Made by a program: the position numbers and the translations under genes. From positions 70,786 to 134,785 of the forward strand of contig DASYJF010000114.1 of the NCBI GenBank assembly GCA_035996815.1: 64,000 nucleotides of DNA, in the 5' to 3' direction. How positions within the stretch are numbered: position 1 is the stretch's first letter; each line of letters starts with the position of its first letter. Below, piece by piece: positions 18,797-63,787 of the stretch. The DNA comes from Thermoanaerobaculia bacterium. GTDB taxonomy: Bacteria; Acidobacteriota; Thermoanaerobaculia; Gp7-AA8. The notes beneath the pieces are model-generated. The model worked only from the letters and a program-made list of their open reading frames with translations. It did no database searches and was not told the DNA's origin.

Positions 18797-19038
18797 AGTG
18801 GACTAGTGGATCAGTAGATTAGTGGATTAGTAGGTCGGTGATCGGGCGATTGGTAGACGCTGAATCCGAGAAGAAGTCACGGGTAATACCCAATGGCCTT
18901 GCCTTAATTAGTTTTCGATGCTCGCGGCTGGAGCGCTGGCGTCTCGCCGGCTGGCTCGCCTGCGCAAACGCTTACGTTAAGGCCATTGCGGGTAATACCG
19001 AAGCTCCTGATCTACTAATCCACTAATCTACGAATCCA
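18797..19038. repeat. composite nested inverted-repeat structure: outer arms of repeat family D, inner 25-bp inverted repeats, central half copy of repeat A
   Basis: 18797-18840 is complementary to 19011-19038. 18881-18908 is approximately complementary to 18977-19000. 18931-18965 matches the repeat-A arm. Confidence 0.7.
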
Positions 19039-59985: not shown

Positions 59986-60630
59986 CTAAGCGCCACACCG
60001 CTTCGTGCGCATCAGCATGCGCGCGATGCCTGGCAGTTTGTCGGTGTGATCGGGAAGCTTCGGATCGGCGGCAAGCAGCGCGTTCACGGTGTCCTGCTGG
60101 CAATGGAAGACCGTGAAACGATCGATGTCCGGCACGCCGGAGCGAGCCAGGTCGAGGGCGGTGATGCCGTCGCTGGCGGCGAGGCGCGGGTTGGCTTTGT
60201 GCGCGAGGAGAATCTTCACGATATCGGTGTAGCCGTAGCCGGCAGCCAACATTAATGGTGTGGTTCCGTGCGGATCGGCGTTGTTTGGATTCGCGCCGGC
60301 GTTGAGCAGCGCCGTGACGGAAGCCGGCTGCGACTTGTGGACGGCGTGCAGCAACGGCGTCCAGGAGTTCACCGCCGTGTCGGCCACATTCGGATTCGCG
60401 CCGCGGCTGGTGAGGAAGCGGATCATCTCCACGCTGCCTGCTCGCGCGGCGGCGATCAGCGGCGTGTAGCCGGCCGAATCGTGTCCGTTCGGATCGAGGC
60501 CGGCGTCGAGCATGCGCTTCATGCCGGCGATGTCGCCGGCGGACGCGGCCGCCGCGGCGGGAGAGTGCGGACCGTAGTGACAGGCGATGGTGACGGTGAC
60601 GTAGAGGATGAGCACGGCGAGGCGTCGCAT
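59986..60630 (-). CDS. secreted ankyrin-repeat protein (about 5 ANK repeats)
   Basis: Repeated G.TPL..AA..G......LL..GA.PN units. N-terminal signal peptide. Confidence 0.8.
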   Translation of the reverse strand: MRRLAVLILYVTVTIACHYGPHSPAAAAASAGDIAGMKRMLDAGLDPNGHDSAGYTPLIAAARAGSVEMIRFLTSRGANPNVADTAVNSWTPLLHAVHKSQPASVTALLNAGANPNNADPHGTTPLMLAAGYGYTDIVKILLAHKANPRLAASDGITALDLARSGVPDIDRFTVFHCQQDTVNALLAADPKLPDHTDKLPGIARMLMRTKRCGA

Positions 60631-60747
60631 GCCATCAAGATGCATCCGTCGCCGAACAATGTCGAGTACTTTATGAAACTAAGCGAAATAGTTCGCGGAC
60701 CGCTGCGTTTAACCGTGCTCCAACGCAGTCTTCAACACGGGAGAACT

Positions 60748-60906
60748 ATGCCTGACCAGAAAGCACATGAGGTACTTCGGAAGCACAACATCTCGCTCGA
60801 AGACGTGAGGGAACGCCGCACCACACTGCATCACCTTCGTCATATCGTCCACGCCGAGGAGCTCCCTTTCGACGTGTTCAAAGCAATCGTCAAACTGCGG
60901 CGGTAG
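60748..60906 (+). CDS. possible small (52 aa) protein
   Basis: GGGAGA ribosome-binding site 6 nt upstream of the ATG. Lower GC. Followed by the repeat-D hairpin. Competes with an antisense 91-aa ORF (60709..60984). Confidence 0.3.
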   Translation: MPDQKAHEVLRKHNISLEDVRERRTTLHHLRHIVHAEELPFDVFKAIVKLRR

Positions 60907-60914
60907 AAGCCAGT

Positions 60915-60995
60915 CGGTTAGTGGATTAGTAGATTCGTGGATCAGGAACGCGTGGTTTTCCGGATCGACGAATCTACTGATCACTAATCCACTGC
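60915..60995. repeat. repeat family D hairpin copy
   Basis: CGGTTAGTGGATTAGTAGATTCGTGGATCAG ... CGAATCTACTGATCACTAATCCACTG. Confidence 0.75.
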
Positions 60996-61043
60996 TTCTC
61001 CCGCTACAATGTCCCGCTCATTCCGCCCGGGGGGACCTCGACT

Positions 61044-63119
61044 TTGCCGTTTCGCGACGATGCTCAGCGCCTGATCGACCAAAAGAAATTCGACGAGCTC
61101 GAGTCCCTCTGGATGTCGCAGCTCGACCGCGACCCGAGCGACGTCGACTCGTTCATCACCACTGCCCGCGTGCTCCGCAAGTCGGAGCAGCGCACGCAGT
61201 CCGACACGCTTCTCGGCCTCCTCTCCGACACGCTGCTGGAGAAGAAGTTGTGGCCGCTGCGGCTGCAGGTGCTGAAGGAGCTCGGCCGCCTCTCGAAACA
61301 TCCCGCCACGCTGCGGCCGCAGATCGAGCAGGCGCTTCGCGGCGCGCACGGGACGCATAAGAACTTCCAGCGCGTCTACGAGTTCGCCGGCTTCGCCGAG
61401 CCGACCAGCAATCCGGTCGAGAAGGCGGAGAAGATCGAGACCTGGCTGAAGTACGACGAAGGGGAGATGTACTTCATGGCCGGCCGTGGTGCCGGCATCG
61501 TCACGGAGCTGAATCCCGACCTCGGCATCGCGCGTCTCGATTTCGAAAAAGACAAGCGTGTGCCGGTTCCGATCGGCGCGGCAGCCAAGTACCTCACTCC
61601 GCTTCCGGCTGGGCATGTGCTTCGCGAAAAGTTCAGCGACGGCGAAGCGCTGCGCGCCGAGGCGAAGAAATCGCCCGCGGCGGTGTTCGCGCGCATCCTG
61701 CAGAGTTTCGGACGTCCGATGCAGATGGGCGAAGTGCGCGACGCCGTCATCGGCATTGTCCCCGAGGAGAAGTGGAGCTCGTGGTGGACGGCGGCGCGGA
61801 AGAATCCGCAGATCGTAATCAGCGGCAGCGGCGCCAAGGCTACGTATGCCTGGAGCGCGTCGACCGGCGCGGCTGACGAAGCGATCAAGCGCGCCTTCGA
61901 TCGGGCCGATCCGAAAGGGAAGCTCGACCTCGCGCGGAAGCACAGCGCGCGCAGCAAAGATCTGGCGGATTACATCTCCGAAAAGCTGGCGTCCGAGGCC
62001 GCGAGGCTTGCGCCGCGCGATCCGGCGACGGCGTGGCAGATTGCTGCGACACTCGAGTCACTGCCCGGCGCGTACACGGCGTTGCTCGACCCGAAGTCGC
62101 TTATCACCGGGCCGCTCGCGTCGCGCGTCATCGTCGCCGTCACCGACAAAACGCTGCGCGAGCGCGCGCTCGGGCAAGTCCGTGATCTGAATCCCGACTG
62201 GCCGAAGGTCTACAGCGAAGTCTTCTTCCTCGACGAAGACCCGCGCATCCTCTCGGTCATCATCAACTCGCTGGAAGAGTCGGGGAACAAAGAGCTGCGC
62301 GACCGGCTCATCGACGAAACGCTGCGCTACCCGCGCCGCCATCCGCGCGCGTTCTACTGGTTCGCCAAGCAGCTCAACGAGCAGGAGACGCTGTCAGAGA
62401 AAGCGAACTACACCCTGTTGTTCCAGATCGTCGACGCCATCAGCTCCGATGAATTCTCAGCAGTTCGCGCGAAGCTGAAAGAGATGTTCGATCACGGCGG
62501 TCTCGCGCTGCGCATCATCATGGGCGTCGCCAACGAAGAAGGCGCGCGCAAGCTCGTCGAAACGATCGACCGCTACGGCGCGATCGAGGAGTACCGTCGC
62601 GAGACCGCGAAGGGCGCGGCGCTGATGAAGTTCCCGCAGCTTCGCGAGCCTGAGGCCGAGCCGGTGTACGCGACTGCGCAGTCGCTCGATCAGAAGCGCG
62701 CCGAGCTGACGAACCTCAAGACGGTCGAGATTCCGGCGAACTCGCGCGCGTTGCAGGCAGCGCGCGAGATGGGCGATCTTCGCGAAAACTTCGAATACAA
62801 AGCCGCTCGTGCTCGCGCCGAATATCTTTCGGCGCGCGTCGGTGAGCTGGCCTCGGAGATTTCGCGCGTTCAGGTTCTGAATCCCGATCAGGTCGACACG
62901 TCGATCGTTCGCGTCGGAACGAAAGTCGCGCTCGCGAACGGCGACGAACGCCGCGAAGTGACGATCCTCGGGCCGTGGGAATCCGCGCCGGAGCACGGCG
63001 TCTACTCGAATCAATCCGACGTCGCCAAAGCGCTCCTCGGCCACGCGACTGGCGATCTGGTGACGTTCATGGGCAACGATTACCAGATCGAATCGATCCG
63101 CATGTGGGCGGACGCGTAG
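61044..63119 (+). CDS. large (691 aa) protein with C-terminal GreA/GreB-like module (coiled-coil finger plus FKBP-like domain)
   Basis: C-terminal about 150 aa: ..AAREMGDLRENFEYKAARARAEYLSARVGEL... VQVLNPDQ...VRVGTKVAL....VTILGPWESAP is GreA-like. The N-terminal 530 aa are unassigned. Confidence 0.8.
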   Translation: MPFRDDAQRLIDQKKFDELESLWMSQLDRDPSDVDSFITTARVLRKSEQRTQSDTLLGLLSDTLLEKKLWPLRLQVLKELGRLSKHPATLRPQIEQALRGAHGTHKNFQRVYEFAGFAEPTSNPVEKAEKIETWLKYDEGEMYFMAGRGAGIVTELNPDLGIARLDFEKDKRVPVPIGAAAKYLTPLPAGHVLREKFSDGEALRAEAKKSPAAVFARILQSFGRPMQMGEVRDAVIGIVPEEKWSSWWTAARKNPQIVISGSGAKATYAWSASTGAADEAIKRAFDRADPKGKLDLARKHSARSKDLADYISEKLASEAARLAPRDPATAWQIAATLESLPGAYTALLDPKSLITGPLASRVIVAVTDKTLRERALGQVRDLNPDWPKVYSEVFFLDEDPRILSVIINSLEESGNKELRDRLIDETLRYPRRHPRAFYWFAKQLNEQETLSEKANYTLLFQIVDAISSDEFSAVRAKLKEMFDHGGLALRIIMGVANEEGARKLVETIDRYGAIEEYRRETAKGAALMKFPQLREPEAEPVYATAQSLDQKRAELTNLKTVEIPANSRALQAAREMGDLRENFEYKAARARAEYLSARVGELASEISRVQVLNPDQVDTSIVRVGTKVALANGDERREVTILGPWESAPEHGVYSNQSDVAKALLGHATGDLVTFMGNDYQIESIRMWADA

Positions 63120-63142
63120 CGCGGCTACAATCGCCGCTCCCG

Positions 63143-63787
63143 ATGGATCGTCGTCCTCTCAAGACGCGCGAGCGCGGCTGGGCGAAAGCGCTGGCGGCGA
63201 TGCTGGTCCGTGCGAGGATCAGTCCGAACGCGATTTCCGTCTTCAGCGTCGTCTTCGCCCTCGGCGCGGCGGCCGCGTTCATCGCCAGTCGCAACGCCGA
63301 GGGCGTGCAGCGGGTCGTGCTGCTGATCGCTGCGGCGATCTGCATTCAGCTCCGGCTCCTCTGCAACATGCTCGACGGGATGGTCGCGGTGGAGGGGAAG
63401 ATGGCGTCGAAGACCGGCGACATCTTCAACGAGCTGCCTGACCGCATCGCCGATCCGCTGATCATCGTTGCCGCCGGCTACGCGATCATCCGCTTCTACA
63501 CACTCGGTCCCACGTTCGGATGGCTGGCGGGATTGCTGGCGGTGATGACCGCGTACGTCCGCGTGCTGGCCGGCTCCGTCCGCGCGAAGCAGGATTTCGT
63601 CGGACCGATGGCCAAACCGCACCGCATGGCCACGCTGACGTTCGCGGCGATCGTCGACGCCATCGCCGGCTATCTCCGCTTCCGCGATTACGCGCTCATG
63701 CTCGCTCTGATCGTGATCATCCTCGGCACGATCGTCACGATGATCCGCCGCACGCGACGGATGGCCGCGGAGTTGGAGTCGCGTTGA
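63143..63787 (+). CDS. CDP-alcohol phosphatidyltransferase family protein
   Basis: Conserved D(x2)DG(x2)AR...G(x3)D(x3)D-like block (NMLDGMVAVEGKMASKTGDIFNELPDRIADP). Polytopic membrane protein. Confidence 0.8.
   Translation: MDRRPLKTRERGWAKALAAMLVRARISPNAISVFSVVFALGAAAAFIASRNAEGVQRVVLLIAAAICIQLRLLCNMLDGMVAVEGKMASKTGDIFNELPDRIADPLIIVAAGYAIIRFYTLGPTFGWLAGLLAVMTAYVRVLAGSVRAKQDFVGPMAKPHRMATLTFAAIVDAIAGYLRFRDYALMLALIVIILGTIVTMIRRTRRMAAELESR

What the first reader, a model, noticed from the sequence alone, without database searches (positions are those of the whole stretch)
61044..63119. 691-aa protein whose last 150 residues are a complete GreA-like module
Seen directly. The C-terminus (about 62700-63119) has the GreA coiled-coil finger segment (LQAAREMGDLRENFEYKAARARAEYLSARVGELASEI) followed by the FKBP-like RNA-polymerase-binding domain (VQVLNPDQ..IVRVGTKVAL...VTILGPWESAP...GDLV). 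The preceding 530 residues (starting MPFRDDAQRLIDQKKFDELESLWMSQLDRDP) are helical and unassigned. Inference: the protein may tether an unknown activity to the RNA polymerase secondary channel. Alternatively it may be a Gfh/Rnk-like competitor with a regulatory N-domain.
Basis: partly seen in the sequence, partly recalled or inferred. Interest (0 to 1): 0.55.

Follow-up and report, generated by a model that had tools for sequence, protein, structure and literature searches.

The report
Long-form GreA with conserved N-terminal module
This is an intact gene for a "long" version of the bacterial transcript-cleavage factor GreA. Its extra 540-residue N-terminal module belongs to a widespread, already catalogued but functionally untested family, and looks like a docking scaffold rather than an enzyme.

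Summary
Window 61044-63119 (+) encodes a 691-aa protein. Residues 541-691 are a complete GreA: both Pfam domains score well above cutoff, the predicted fold matches E. coli GreA at TM 0.81, and the catalytic D41/E44 equivalents (D578/E581) are invariant in the family.

The N-terminal 540 residues are neither all-helical nor unassigned. A confident AlphaFold model (pLDDT 94) shows four parts:
- a TPR-like repeat (1-135)
- a small Tudor-like beta-barrel (136-186)
- a winged helix-turn-helix (187-272)
- a helical solenoid (273-530)

This module alone matches the NCBIfam models for long GreA fusion proteins (E 1e-23 to 1e-26). Newer Pfam lists it as HTH_GRAD and GRAD_C. The architecture recurs in at least 535 reference genomes across many phyla, so it is not a fusion artefact.

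The barrel shows moderate profile and fold similarity to the CarD/Mfd RNA-polymerase-interacting domain. This suggests, but does not prove, a second anchor on RNA polymerase. There is no sign of an enzyme, a Gfh1-like inhibitor or a defence system.

Verdict: an ordinary new member (Thermoanaerobaculia, Acidobacteriota) of a known, experimentally uncharacterised family.

The parts
61044..63119 (+). Complete gene for long-form GreA (691 aa plus stop), TTG start
   Evidence: ORF list and translation. Homologues of 690 aa share the same start. L014 in a Thermoanaerobaculia MAG is 97% identical.
61005..61010 (+). TACAAT box, a likely -10 promoter element of the gene (inferred)
   Evidence: A TACAAT/TAGAAT box lies about 30-40 nt before the start codon in the window and in all 10 related loci examined, although the rest of the intergenic sequence differs. 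The generic sigma-70 scan found no full promoter.
61029..61035 (+). GGGGGGA Shine-Dalgarno-like run, 9-15 nt before the TTG start
   Evidence: Read directly from the sequence.
61044..61448 (+). Residues 1-135: TPR-like helical repeat. This is the least conserved part and is apparently missing or diverged in verrucomicrobial members.
   Evidence: AF2 model helices H2-135, pLDDT above 90. Only generic TPR/HAT fold hits. Mean 24% identity across the family. Verrucomicrobial matches start at residue 140-149.
61449..61601 (+). Residues 136-186: small Tudor-like beta-barrel with the G140/G149/G151 'G.G.GRV.E.N' signature. A candidate distant relative of the CarD/TRCF RNA-polymerase-interacting domain.
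   Evidence: Strands 142-176. Fold hits to the UvrD C-terminal domain (TM 0.82), PHF1 Tudor, CarD 4kbm_B, CdnL 2lqk and Mfd, all with E>=0.02. hhalign against 28 genuine PF02559 proteins gives Prob 70.6%, P 3.9e-5. The real score is 30.4, against 11.0+/-2.3 for shuffled controls (max 22.6, n=200). G149 is invariant.
61602..61859 (+). Residues 187-272: winged helix-turn-helix with the conserved W244, W247/W248 and A251 'W..WW..ARK.P' helix. It probably corresponds to Pfam HTH_GRAD (the mapping is inferred).
   Evidence: Helices 192-252 plus a beta-hairpin at 257-270. Weak ArsR/SmtB-type wHTH fold hits, TM about 0.45. W248 is invariant. Homologues carry PF27167 HTH_GRAD. Conservation equals that of the GreA C-domain.
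61860..62633 (+). Residues 273-530: all-helical solenoid (about 17 helices). Part of it probably corresponds to Pfam GRAD_C (the mapping is inferred).
   Evidence: AF2 helices H274-529, pLDDT mostly above 90. Only generic repeat-protein fold hits. PF27371 GRAD_C is listed on homologues. W386 and W439 are nearly invariant.
62634..62663 (+). Residues 531-540: short linker (PQLREPEAEP) with lower model confidence
   Evidence: The pLDDT block for 531-540 is 75, against above 90 on either side.
62664..62876 (+). Residues 541-611: GreA N-terminal coiled-coil finger
   Evidence: Pfam PF03449, E 9.9e-18. Helices 545-575 and 583-607. Fold match to 1grj.
62772..62798 (+). Finger-tip motif GDLRENFEY (residues 577-585). 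D578 and E581 are equivalent to the E. coli GreA catalytic residues D41 and E44.
   Evidence: Gap-free alignment to 1grj. G577, D578 and E581 are invariant, and L579, N582, E584 and Y585 are at least 90% conserved, in 56 members collected through the N-module only.
62877..63116 (+). Residues 612-691: GreA C-terminal FKBP-like globular domain. In canonical Gre factors this domain binds the beta-prime rim helices.
   Evidence: Pfam PF01272, E 3.8e-13. Strands 626-687. Fold match.

Best explanation
The gene encodes a genuine long-form GreA.

Shown: the C-terminal 150 residues are a complete Gre factor, with the coiled-coil finger, the FKBP-like domain and both catalytic acidic tip residues intact.

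Shown: this factor is fused through a short linker, at its natural N-terminus, to a conserved module of about 540 residues. The module consists of a TPR-like repeat, a Tudor-like barrel, a winged HTH and a helical solenoid. It is homologous to the N-terminal regions of the long GreA proteins modelled by NCBIfam PRK06330 and PRK14720, and to the Pfam HTH_GRAD/GRAD_C families.

Inferred from established Gre-factor biology: the GreA part enters the RNA polymerase secondary channel and stimulates cleavage of backtracked RNA. Because the fusion is at the N-terminus, at the base of the finger, the N-module must sit outside the channel mouth.

Inferred, less certain: the N-module is a non-catalytic docking scaffold. 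Its best conserved core, the barrel plus the wHTH, would provide a second contact. The CarD/Mfd-RID-like barrel could contact RNA polymerase itself, and/or the wHTH could contact nucleic acid. Either would raise or control the factor's occupancy on stalled polymerase.
For: GreA identity:
- Both Pfam domains are above cutoff.
- NCBIfam greA-type models match.
- The PDB sequence match to E. coli GreA has E 2.3e-12.
- The AF2 model has pLDDT 94, and its GreA part matches 1grj at TM 0.81 / 2.7 A.
- D578/E581 are invariant in 56 diverse members.

The fusion is real and old:
- 696 representative clusters match the N-module alone, and most are 680-720 aa with end-to-end matches.
- At least 535 loci occur in GTDB species genomes, including Acidobacteriota, Gemmatimonadales, Fibrobacterota, Myxococcota, Verrucomicrobiota, Lentisphaerae, WOR-3 and TA06.

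N-module homology to known long GreAs: the N-module alone hits NF011309 (E 1.7e-26) and NF004969 (E 1.5e-23). Homologues carry HTH_GRAD and GRAD_C.

Scaffold nature: the domain anatomy, no enzyme family in Pfam and only repeat-protein fold hits.

The core of the N-module is the barrel plus the wHTH. It is as conserved as the GreA C-domain (36% against 39% mean identity), while the repeat regions reach only 24-27%.

RID-like barrel: CarD, CdnL, Mfd and the UvrD C-terminal domain are among the top fold hits. hhalign against genuine PF02559 members gives Prob 70.6%, P 3.9e-5, far above the shuffled controls.

The module is autonomous: complete GreA-less paralogues exist, for example P0150 (557 aa) in L001 with no greA nearby.

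In Chlamydia trachomatis the 715-aa GreA is the only Gre factor listed (PMC10995303). This is consistent with the long form doing the housekeeping job there.
Against: - No experiment or complex model supports any contact of the N-module with RNA polymerase or nucleic acid.
- The RID link is only moderate. There is no Pfam PF02559 hit even at E<=10 and no PDB sequence hit. All Foldseek E-values are >=0.02. Single-sequence hhalign gives only 3-6% probability.
- The aligned stretch covers only the first three strands.
- The CarD residues I recall as RNAP-contacting (R25, R47; from memory) are not visibly conserved.
- The protein scores below the curated cutoffs of TIGR01462 (122.8 against 139), NF004969 (191 against 697) and NF011309 (219.6 against 714).
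- I could not determine whether the same genome also has a short canonical GreA. If it does, the long form might be an accessory factor rather than the housekeeping one.
Confidence: 0.6

Rival explanations
1. Recruitment hub. The N-module does not touch RNA polymerase or nucleic acid. Instead it uses its TPR-like and solenoid repeats, and its Tudor-like barrel, to bind other proteins such as repair, termination or translation factors. This would bring them to backtracked polymerase, or bring GreA to particular complexes, much as the N-terminal domain of eukaryotic TFIIS serves as an interaction platform.
For: TPR-like and helical-solenoid repeats are typical protein-protein interaction scaffolds. 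The best small-domain fold match is the UvrD C-terminal Tudor domain in complex with UvrB (7egt_B, TM 0.82). GreA-less stand-alone copies of the module exist, so it has a function of its own.
Against: No conserved gene neighbour suggests a partner. The window's neighbours are unrelated and synteny differs between clades. The repeat regions are the least conserved parts, while the barrel and wHTH are the conserved core. The profile similarity is to the RNAP-binding RID family specifically.
Confidence: 0.22
2. Regulatory or autoinhibitory N-domain, or a Gfh1/Rnk-like competitor. The N-module would gate access of the finger to the secondary channel in response to a signal. Alternatively the protein would occupy the channel without cleaving, to block other factors.
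For: The AF2 model is compact (pTM 0.70 for a 691-aa multidomain chain), so intramolecular contacts between the N-module and GreA are possible. Weak NCBIfam hits to Rnk-type 'nucleoside diphosphate kinase regulator' models exist (E 3e-5).
Against: The catalytic D578/E581 and the tip motif are invariant across the family, unlike Gfh1. The coiled coil is full length, unlike Rnk. No ligand-binding or sensor domain was detected. The GreA models score far better than the Rnk models.
Confidence: 0.1
3. Conflict or defence protein of the TPR + GreA/B-C + PIN type described by Kaur et al. 2021. Such proteins use a Gre C-domain to dock on hijacked polymerase and then fire an effector.
For: There is a superficial resemblance: TPR-like repeats sit on the same polypeptide as a GreA/B C-domain (PMC8195603).
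Against: There is no PIN domain and no variable effector domain; the protein ends with the GreA C-domain. It has the complete coiled-coil finger with catalytic residues. There is no PADLOC hit. It is a slowly evolving orthologue with a fixed architecture across phyla, found among ordinary cellular genes (MurC-type ligase, ferredoxin, LepA nearby in relatives), not a rapidly evolving, effector-swapping system.
Confidence: 0.02
4. Fusion artefact. Two separate genes would have been joined by a sequencing or assembly error or a frameshift.
For: None found.
Against: The same uninterrupted architecture and length (about 690 aa) occurs in hundreds of independent assemblies from many phyla. The junction sequence (LE.YRR...FP.L...YAT) is conserved in the family consensus. 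Curated NCBIfam models exist for the full-length fusion.
Confidence: 0.01

Closest known systems
Long GreA of Chlamydia: NCBIfam NF004969 / PRK06330 'transcript cleavage factor/unknown domain fusion protein' (C. trachomatis CTL0004, 715 aa)
   Same: Same overall architecture and size: an N-module of about 540-560 aa followed by a C-terminal GreA. One continuous match covers residues 97-687 against profile positions 98-714 of 718. The N-module alone still matches (E 1.5e-23). A 2024 review describes the N-terminal part as unusually large and of unknown significance (PMC10995303).
   Different: The score is far below the equivalog cutoff (191 against 697 bits), so this is a distant orthologue or paralogue from another phylum (Acidobacteriota). 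The first 96 or so residues do not align.
NCBIfam NF011309 / PRK14720 long GreA (906-position model). From memory this is the spirochaete type, e.g. the roughly 900-aa Borrelia GreA; the attribution was not verified here.
   Same: It is the best-scoring full-length model (E 7.3e-65). The N-module alone matches profile positions 173-478 (E 1.7e-26). All 56 diverse family members hit it.
   Different: That model has about 170 extra N-terminal positions and is about 215 positions longer. The score (219.6) is far below the cutoff (714).
Canonical GreA/GreB (E. coli GreA, PDB 1grj; about 158 aa)
   Same: Residues 541-691 have the same two domains, the same fold (TM 0.81) and the same catalytic D/E tip residues.
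   Different: There are 540 extra residues at the N-terminus. The tip motif has a family-specific Phe (GDLRENFEY against E. coli GDLKENAEY). The protein is below the TIGR01462 cutoff.
CarD / CdnL / Mfd (TRCF) RNA-polymerase-interacting domain (Pfam PF02559)
   Same: Residues of about 136-186 form a similar small Tudor-like barrel with a comparable 'G(D).VV...hG.G.V..I' strand signature. Profile-profile probability is 70.6% and well above shuffled controls. CarD, CdnL and Mfd structures appear among the top fold hits.
   Different: There is no direct Pfam or PDB sequence hit. Only three strands align. Binding to the RNAP beta lobe is untested. The context is different: a wHTH and solenoid follow, rather than the CarD C-terminal helical domain or the Mfd translocase.
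TPR + GreA/B-C + PIN conflict systems (Kaur, Iyer, Burroughs, Aravind 2021, PMC8195603)
   Same: Repeat region and a Gre C-terminal domain on one polypeptide. Both are proposed to dock on the RNAP secondary-channel rim.
   Different: Those proteins lack the coiled-coil finger, carry a C-terminal PIN nuclease and swap N-terminal effector domains. None of these features is present here.
Eukaryotic TFIIS (functional analogy only, from general knowledge)
   Same: A transcript-cleavage factor that inserts an acidic hairpin into the polymerase pore and also carries an N-terminal helical interaction domain that is not needed for cleavage.
   Different: No homology. The folds and the way of reaching the active site differ.

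Membership tests
GreA/GreB transcript cleavage factors | N-terminal antiparallel coiled-coil finger (Pfam PF03449) above the gathering score | tested here: met
   Residues 542-611, 64.6 bits against 24.5. Helices 545-575 and 583-607.
GreA/GreB transcript cleavage factors | C-terminal FKBP-like globular domain (Pfam PF01272) above the gathering score | tested here: met
   Residues 620-679, 49.6 bits against 26.9.
GreA/GreB transcript cleavage factors | Acidic finger-tip residues equivalent to E. coli D41 and E44 | tested here: met
   D578 and E581 by gap-free alignment to 1grj. Both are invariant in 56 family members.
GreA/GreB transcript cleavage factors | Three-dimensional fold of GreA | tested here: met
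   The predicted model matches 1grj at TM 0.81 and rmsd 2.7 A over 152 columns. This is a prediction, not a solved structure.
GreA/GreB transcript cleavage factors | Score above the NCBIfam TIGR01462 greA cutoff | tested here: not met
   122.8 bits against a cutoff of 139. It is a divergent GreA module, not a standard equivalog.
GreA/GreB transcript cleavage factors | Binds the RNAP secondary channel and stimulates cleavage of backtracked RNA | not testable with these tools
   Needs biochemistry.
Long GreA, chlamydial type (NCBIfam NF004969) | Whole-protein score at or above the curated cutoff (697 bits) | tested here: not met
   191 bits.
Long GreA, chlamydial type (NCBIfam NF004969) | Homologous N-terminal 'unknown domain' followed by a C-terminal GreA in one protein of about 700 aa | tested here: met
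   A single match covers residues 97-687 against profile positions 98-714. The N-module alone gives E 1.5e-23.
Long GreA, PRK14720 type (NCBIfam NF011309) | Whole-protein score at or above the curated cutoff (714 bits) | tested here: not met
   219.6 bits.
Long GreA, PRK14720 type (NCBIfam NF011309) | Homology of the N-module | tested here: met
   The N-module alone gives E 1.7e-26, residues 4-305 against profile positions 173-478.
Pfam HTH_GRAD (PF27167) / GRAD_C (PF27371) | Match to the Pfam HMMs | not testable with these tools
   The local Pfam copy lacks these models. By proxy, the 90%-identical P0001 and most of the 120 closest homologues carry PF27167, and many carry PF27371, in precomputed annotation.
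CarD_TRCF_RID (Pfam PF02559) | Match to the Pfam HMM | tested here: not met
   No hit for residues 125-285 even at E<=10. No PDB sequence-profile hit to CarD or Mfd.
CarD_TRCF_RID (Pfam PF02559) | Remote profile-profile similarity in the correct register | tested here: inconclusive
   hhalign gives Prob 70.6%, P 3.9e-5 over 41 columns. The score of 30.4 compares with 11.0+/-2.3 for shuffled controls, max 22.6. Single-sequence comparisons give only 3-6%.
CarD_TRCF_RID (Pfam PF02559) | Tudor-like five-stranded barrel fold | tested here: met
   Strands at 142-176. Fold hits to CarD 4kbm_B, CdnL 2lqk (TM 0.50), Mfd and the UvrD C-terminal domain (TM 0.82), but all with E>=0.02.
CarD_TRCF_RID (Pfam PF02559) | Binds the RNAP beta-subunit lobe | not testable with these tools
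   Needs a complex prediction or binding experiments.
Gfh1 / Rnk-type non-cleaving secondary-channel competitors | Catalytic tip altered (Gfh1) or coiled coil shortened (Rnk) | tested here: not met
   The tip motif GDLRENFEY is conserved with an invariant D and E. The coiled coil is full length.
TPR + GreA/B-C + PIN conflict systems | C-terminal PIN nuclease and a variable N-terminal effector, with no coiled-coil finger | tested here: not met
   The protein ends with the GreA C-domain and has the finger. No PADLOC hit. The system is described in PMC8195603.

The most novel reading that the evidence does not exclude
The long GreA would be a two-point-anchored, quasi-subunit of RNA polymerase. 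The conserved Tudor-like barrel would be a true CarD/Mfd-type RID that grips the beta lobe. The wHTH would read DNA or extruded backtracked RNA. The solenoid would span the polymerase surface, so that the Gre finger stays permanently poised at the secondary channel. One polypeptide would then combine CarD/Mfd-like and Gre-like functions in the many phyla that have it, including Chlamydia and spirochaetes. The GreA-less paralogues would act as stand-alone RNAP-binding regulators.
Probability: 0.25. Interest if true: 0.6.

Novelty: new member of a known kind. Interest (0 to 1): 0.33.

Why it matters
Gre factors are central to transcription fidelity and to rescuing stalled polymerase. The long form is the only Gre factor listed for Chlamydia trachomatis (PMC10995303). 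By NCBIfam it also occurs in a second long-GreA group, which from memory is the spirochaete type. Here it is shown to be widespread in Acidobacteriota, Verrucomicrobiota, Fibrobacterota and other phyla.

Its 540-residue extra module has no tested function in the literature I could search. The domain dissection given here turns 'unknown domain' into specific, cheap experiments: binding to the beta lobe, nucleic-acid binding, and cleavage assays with the N-module deleted. The parts are a TPR-like repeat, a RID-like Tudor barrel, a wHTH and a solenoid, with the barrel and wHTH as the conserved core.

For this particular window the result is modest. It is a routine orthologue of a catalogued family, not a new system.

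Tried and rejected
- **Local Pfam scans** of the three N-terminal sub-regions at E<=10 gave no hits. The relevant models (PF27167, PF27371) are newer than the local copy.
- **PDB sequence-profile search** with the central unit gave only chance-level hits.
- **Whole-model Foldseek** gave only GreA plus generic TPR/HAT repeat proteins at TM<0.2 for the N-module.
- **Literature searches** for PF27167/PF27371, HTH_GRAD/GRAD_C, 'GRAD'+GreA, 'GreA-associated domain', CT636, BB0132 and CTL0004 found no description of the module. Early searches were polluted because 'grea' matched 'great'.
The scan with A1 used the tip motif DL[RS]EN[FY]EY, so motif conservation in those loci is by construction and is not used as evidence.
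It was replaced by a profile of database sequences.
- **No CarD or Mfd** is encoded in the window or the fetched loci. **No second Gre-like gene** is in the window.
- **Odd-length family members** were checked for alternative partner domains. They look like fragments or run-on gene calls, for example a histone-deacetylase 'fusion' in P0151 with a frameshift-like junction and a DinB_2 region in P0139. They were not pursued.
- **PADLOC**: no defence-family hit. **Rfam**: nothing in 60500-63400.
- **The conserved 52-aa upstream ORF** was considered as a possible partner. This was rejected because it accompanies the gene only in the close clade (>=67% identity) and is absent from distant relatives.
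Full report
**1. The observation**

Window 61044-63119 (+) is an uninterrupted ORF of 691 codons plus a stop. It begins at TTG. A G-rich Shine-Dalgarno-like run (GGGGGGA, 61029-61035) lies 9-15 nt upstream. The closest database homologues (71-90% identical, nearly all 690 aa) start at the same MPFRD/MGFRE residues.

The C-terminal similarity to GreA is not spurious:
- Pfam GreA_GreB_N covers residues 542-611 (E 9.9e-18). GreA_GreB covers 620-679 (E 3.8e-13). Both are well above their gathering scores.
- E. coli GreA (1grj) aligns without gaps through the finger (E 2.3e-12).
- Several NCBIfam greA/greB models match residues of about 540-680.

In that alignment E. coli D41 and E44, the acidic residues at the finger tip, correspond to D578 and E581 in the motif GDLRENFEY.

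**2. The fusion is real, old and widespread**

I searched 1.84 billion cluster representatives with the N-terminal 540 residues only, so that GreA could not drive the result. This found 696 representatives at E<=1e-3 and 105 at E<=1e-30. Most are 680-720 aa and match end to end, down to 21-35% identity.

In an alignment of 56 such full-length members (A1), the invariant columns are G149, W248, P564, G577, D578, E581 and G643. The catalytic tip is therefore conserved in a set that was not selected for it.

A scan of GTDB species genomes returned at least 535 confirmed loci. The organisms include Thermoanaerobaculia, Holophagae and other Acidobacteriota, Gemmatimonadales, Fibrobacterota, Chondromyces, Candidatus Multivorans, TA06, WOR-3, Verrucomicrobiota and Lentisphaerae. 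L014 is 97% identical and comes from a Thermoanaerobaculia MAG, which places the window in that class. An assembly or frameshift artefact is excluded.

**3. The N-terminal region is already catalogued**

Two full-length NCBIfam models match the whole protein:
- NF011309 (PRK14720, 906 positions): E 7.3e-65.
- NF004969 (PRK06330, 'transcript cleavage factor/unknown domain fusion protein', 718 positions): E 4.3e-56, in one stretch covering residues 97-687.

Both scores are far below the curated equivalog cutoffs. The N-module alone still hits both models (E 1.7e-26 and 1.5e-23), and all 56 members of A1 hit both.

Precomputed annotation of the homologues lists Pfam PF27167 (HTH_GRAD) and PF27371 (GRAD_C). 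My local Pfam copy lacks these models, which explains the empty local scans.

[quoted passage not shown] I found no paper that describes the N-module or the GRAD name.

**4. Anatomy from structure prediction**

With A1 as the input alignment, AlphaFold2 gave a very confident model (mean pLDDT 94, pTM 0.70):

| Residues | Element |
|---|---|
| 1-135 | helical repeat |
| 142-176 | four-stranded core of a small barrel |
| 192-270 | helices plus a beta-hairpin |
| 274-529 | about 17 helices |
| 531-540 | lower-confidence linker |
| 541-691 | GreA |

Against the PDB, the GreA part matches 1grj at TM 0.81 / 2.7 A. The rest finds only generic TPR/HAT/ARM repeat proteins at poor TM.

A separate model of residues 125-285 (pLDDT 92.7) has no significant PDB neighbour; the best E-value is 0.02. 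The weak hits are nevertheless coherent:
- The barrel aligns with Tudor-like domains: PHF1, the UvrD C-terminal domain at TM 0.82, CarD 4kbm_B at rank 2, CdnL 2lqk, and Mfd 2eyq and 6ac6.
- The second half aligns with ArsR/SmtB-type winged HTH domains. This agrees with the Pfam name HTH_GRAD.

Across A1, the barrel and the wHTH are as conserved as the GreA C-domain (36% and 36% against 39% mean identity to the query). The TPR-like and solenoid parts are much less conserved (24% and 27%). The barrel-wHTH unit is therefore the likely functional core of the N-module.

**5. Is the barrel a CarD/Mfd-type RNA-polymerase-interacting domain?**

The family signature 'fD.G..V.M.G.G.GRV.E.N...R.DFE' resembles the RID signature 'f.vGD.VV...hGvG.v.gI'.
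- Direct sequence methods see nothing.
- I then retrieved genuine PF02559 proteins (my Mtb CarD seed matched a database entry at 100%) and aligned 28 diverse ones (A4).
- Profile-profile comparison with the central unit gave Prob 70.6%, P 3.9e-5 over 41 columns, covering strands 1-3 in the expected register.
- Locally, the real score (30.4) exceeded all 200 column-shuffled RID profiles (mean 11.0, sd 2.3, max 22.6) and the reversed profile (8.4).

I read this as moderate evidence for distant homology, roughly 60%. It is not evidence that the barrel binds the RNAP beta lobe. The residues I recall as contacting RNAP in CarD are not visibly conserved.

**6. Context**

The window's neighbours are unrelated to transcription:
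- an ankyrin-repeat protein on the opposite strand
- a Zn-dependent dehydrogenase
- an ABC transporter pair
- a CDP-alcohol phosphatidyltransferase downstream

In two relatives the neighbours are a MurC-type ligase, a ferredoxin and LepA. There is no second Gre-like gene in the window and no CarD or Mfd.

The intergenic leader carries a conserved TACAAT/TAGAAT box about 35 nt before the start codon in the window and in ten relatives. The gene therefore probably has its own promoter.

Complete GreA-less versions of the N-module exist. P0150 (557 aa) in L001 has no greA nearby, and P0185 and P0198 end at the same point. The module can therefore function on its own.

**7. Most likely mechanism**

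Shown: the protein has an intact Gre factor with catalytic residues, fused at its natural N-terminus to a conserved non-enzymatic module.

From established knowledge of Gre factors (structures of GreB and Gfh1 on RNAP are among the hits):
- The C-domain binds the beta-prime rim helices.
- The finger reaches the active site through the secondary channel.
- The factor's N-terminus lies at the base of the finger, outside the channel.

An N-terminal fusion is therefore sterically compatible, and it places the module at the channel mouth.

Inferred: the module is a docking scaffold that supplies a second contact, to RNAP via the RID-like barrel and/or to nucleic acid via the wHTH. This would tune the factor's residence on stalled polymerase.

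I put about 0.95 on 'genuine long-form GreA, cleavage-competent by sequence'. I put about 0.35-0.4 on the specific second-anchor role. Taken together that gives 0.6 for the explanation as worded.

Rival explanations:
- a hub that recruits other proteins (0.22)
- a regulatory, autoinhibitory or competitor role (0.10; argued against by the invariant D/E)
- a TPR-GreA/B-C-PIN-type conflict system (0.02; the defining PIN and effector domains are absent and there is no PADLOC hit)
- a fusion artefact (0.01)

**8. Novelty and score**

The family is known to curators (NCBIfam, Pfam), and homologues are annotated as GreA/GreB family factors in public MAGs. This is a new member of a known kind.

What remains open is the function of the N-module. 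The RID-like barrel is a concrete lead that I could not find stated in the literature available here. For the scan as a whole, this finding is correct but ordinary. Interest: 0.33.

Noticed in passing
window 60748-60906 (+): A small ORF of 52 aa (MPDQKAHEVLRKHNISLEDVRERRTTLHHLRHIVHAEELPFDVFKAIVKLRR) with a GGAGA Shine-Dalgarno at 60740, 137 nt upstream of the long-GreA gene. A 72-98% identical ORF sits upstream of the gene in 12 related loci of the close clade (>=67% GreA identity). In one locus it is on the opposite strand and in another about 2 kb away. It is absent from distant relatives. No Pfam or PADLOC hit. Function unknown.
   Followed up: partly
window 60900-61004 (+); related arms at 18808-18828 (+) and 19017-19037 (-): A near-perfect hairpin of about 105 nt (dG -72.8 kcal/mol, z -7.3 against shuffles) spans the stop codon of the small ORF. 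It has no U-tract and no Rfam match. Its arm sequence recurs as another inverted pair about 42 kb away in the window (0 matches expected by chance), which suggests a dispersed REP/MITE-like hairpin family. Relatives carry unrelated hairpins or canonical terminators in the same slot.
   Followed up: partly
window 61005-61010 and 63127-63132 (+); L002-L016 intergenic regions: A conserved TACAAT/TAGAAT box lies shortly upstream of the long-GreA start in all ten related loci examined. GCTACAAT also occurs just before the downstream CDP-alcohol phosphatidyltransferase gene (ATG at 63144). This may be the typical -10 element of this lineage. The generic sigma-70 scan did not call it.
   Followed up: no
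L001 6001-7674 (protein P0150); also P0185, P0198, P0135: Stand-alone versions of the N-terminal module (about 545-558 aa) end exactly where the GreA module would begin. P0150 is a complete gene with no greA in the roughly 1.1 kb of contig that follows it. It is annotated HTH_GRAD only.
   Followed up: partly
L059-L078, L083 (Verrucomicrobiota loci): Verrucomicrobial members are shorter (about 615-660 aa). They align with the window protein only from residue 140-165 onwards, at the start of the barrel. They seem to lack the TPR-like N-terminal repeat or to have diverged strongly there.
   Followed up: no
window 62772-62798 (residues 577-585): The long-GreA family has a characteristic tip motif GDL[RS]EN[FY]EY, with Phe/Tyr where E. 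coli GreA has Ala46 (GDLKENAEY). F583 is at least 80% conserved in the family. The significance for catalysis or RNA contact is unknown.
   Followed up: no
protein P0151 (1032 aa) and P0139 (611 aa): Apparent extra N-terminal fusions to the long GreA (a histone-deacetylase domain in P0151, DinB_2 in P0139). The P0151 junction looks like a frameshifted run-on of two genes, with an internal MKLPSTLKEAL start. These are probably gene-calling artefacts rather than real architectures.
   Followed up: partly
L003 1238-3326 (-): Two adjacent TIR-domain proteins (451 and 243 aa) lie about 5 kb upstream of the long-GreA gene in one relative. This may be a defence island. It is not conserved in the window or in L002.
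   Followed up: no
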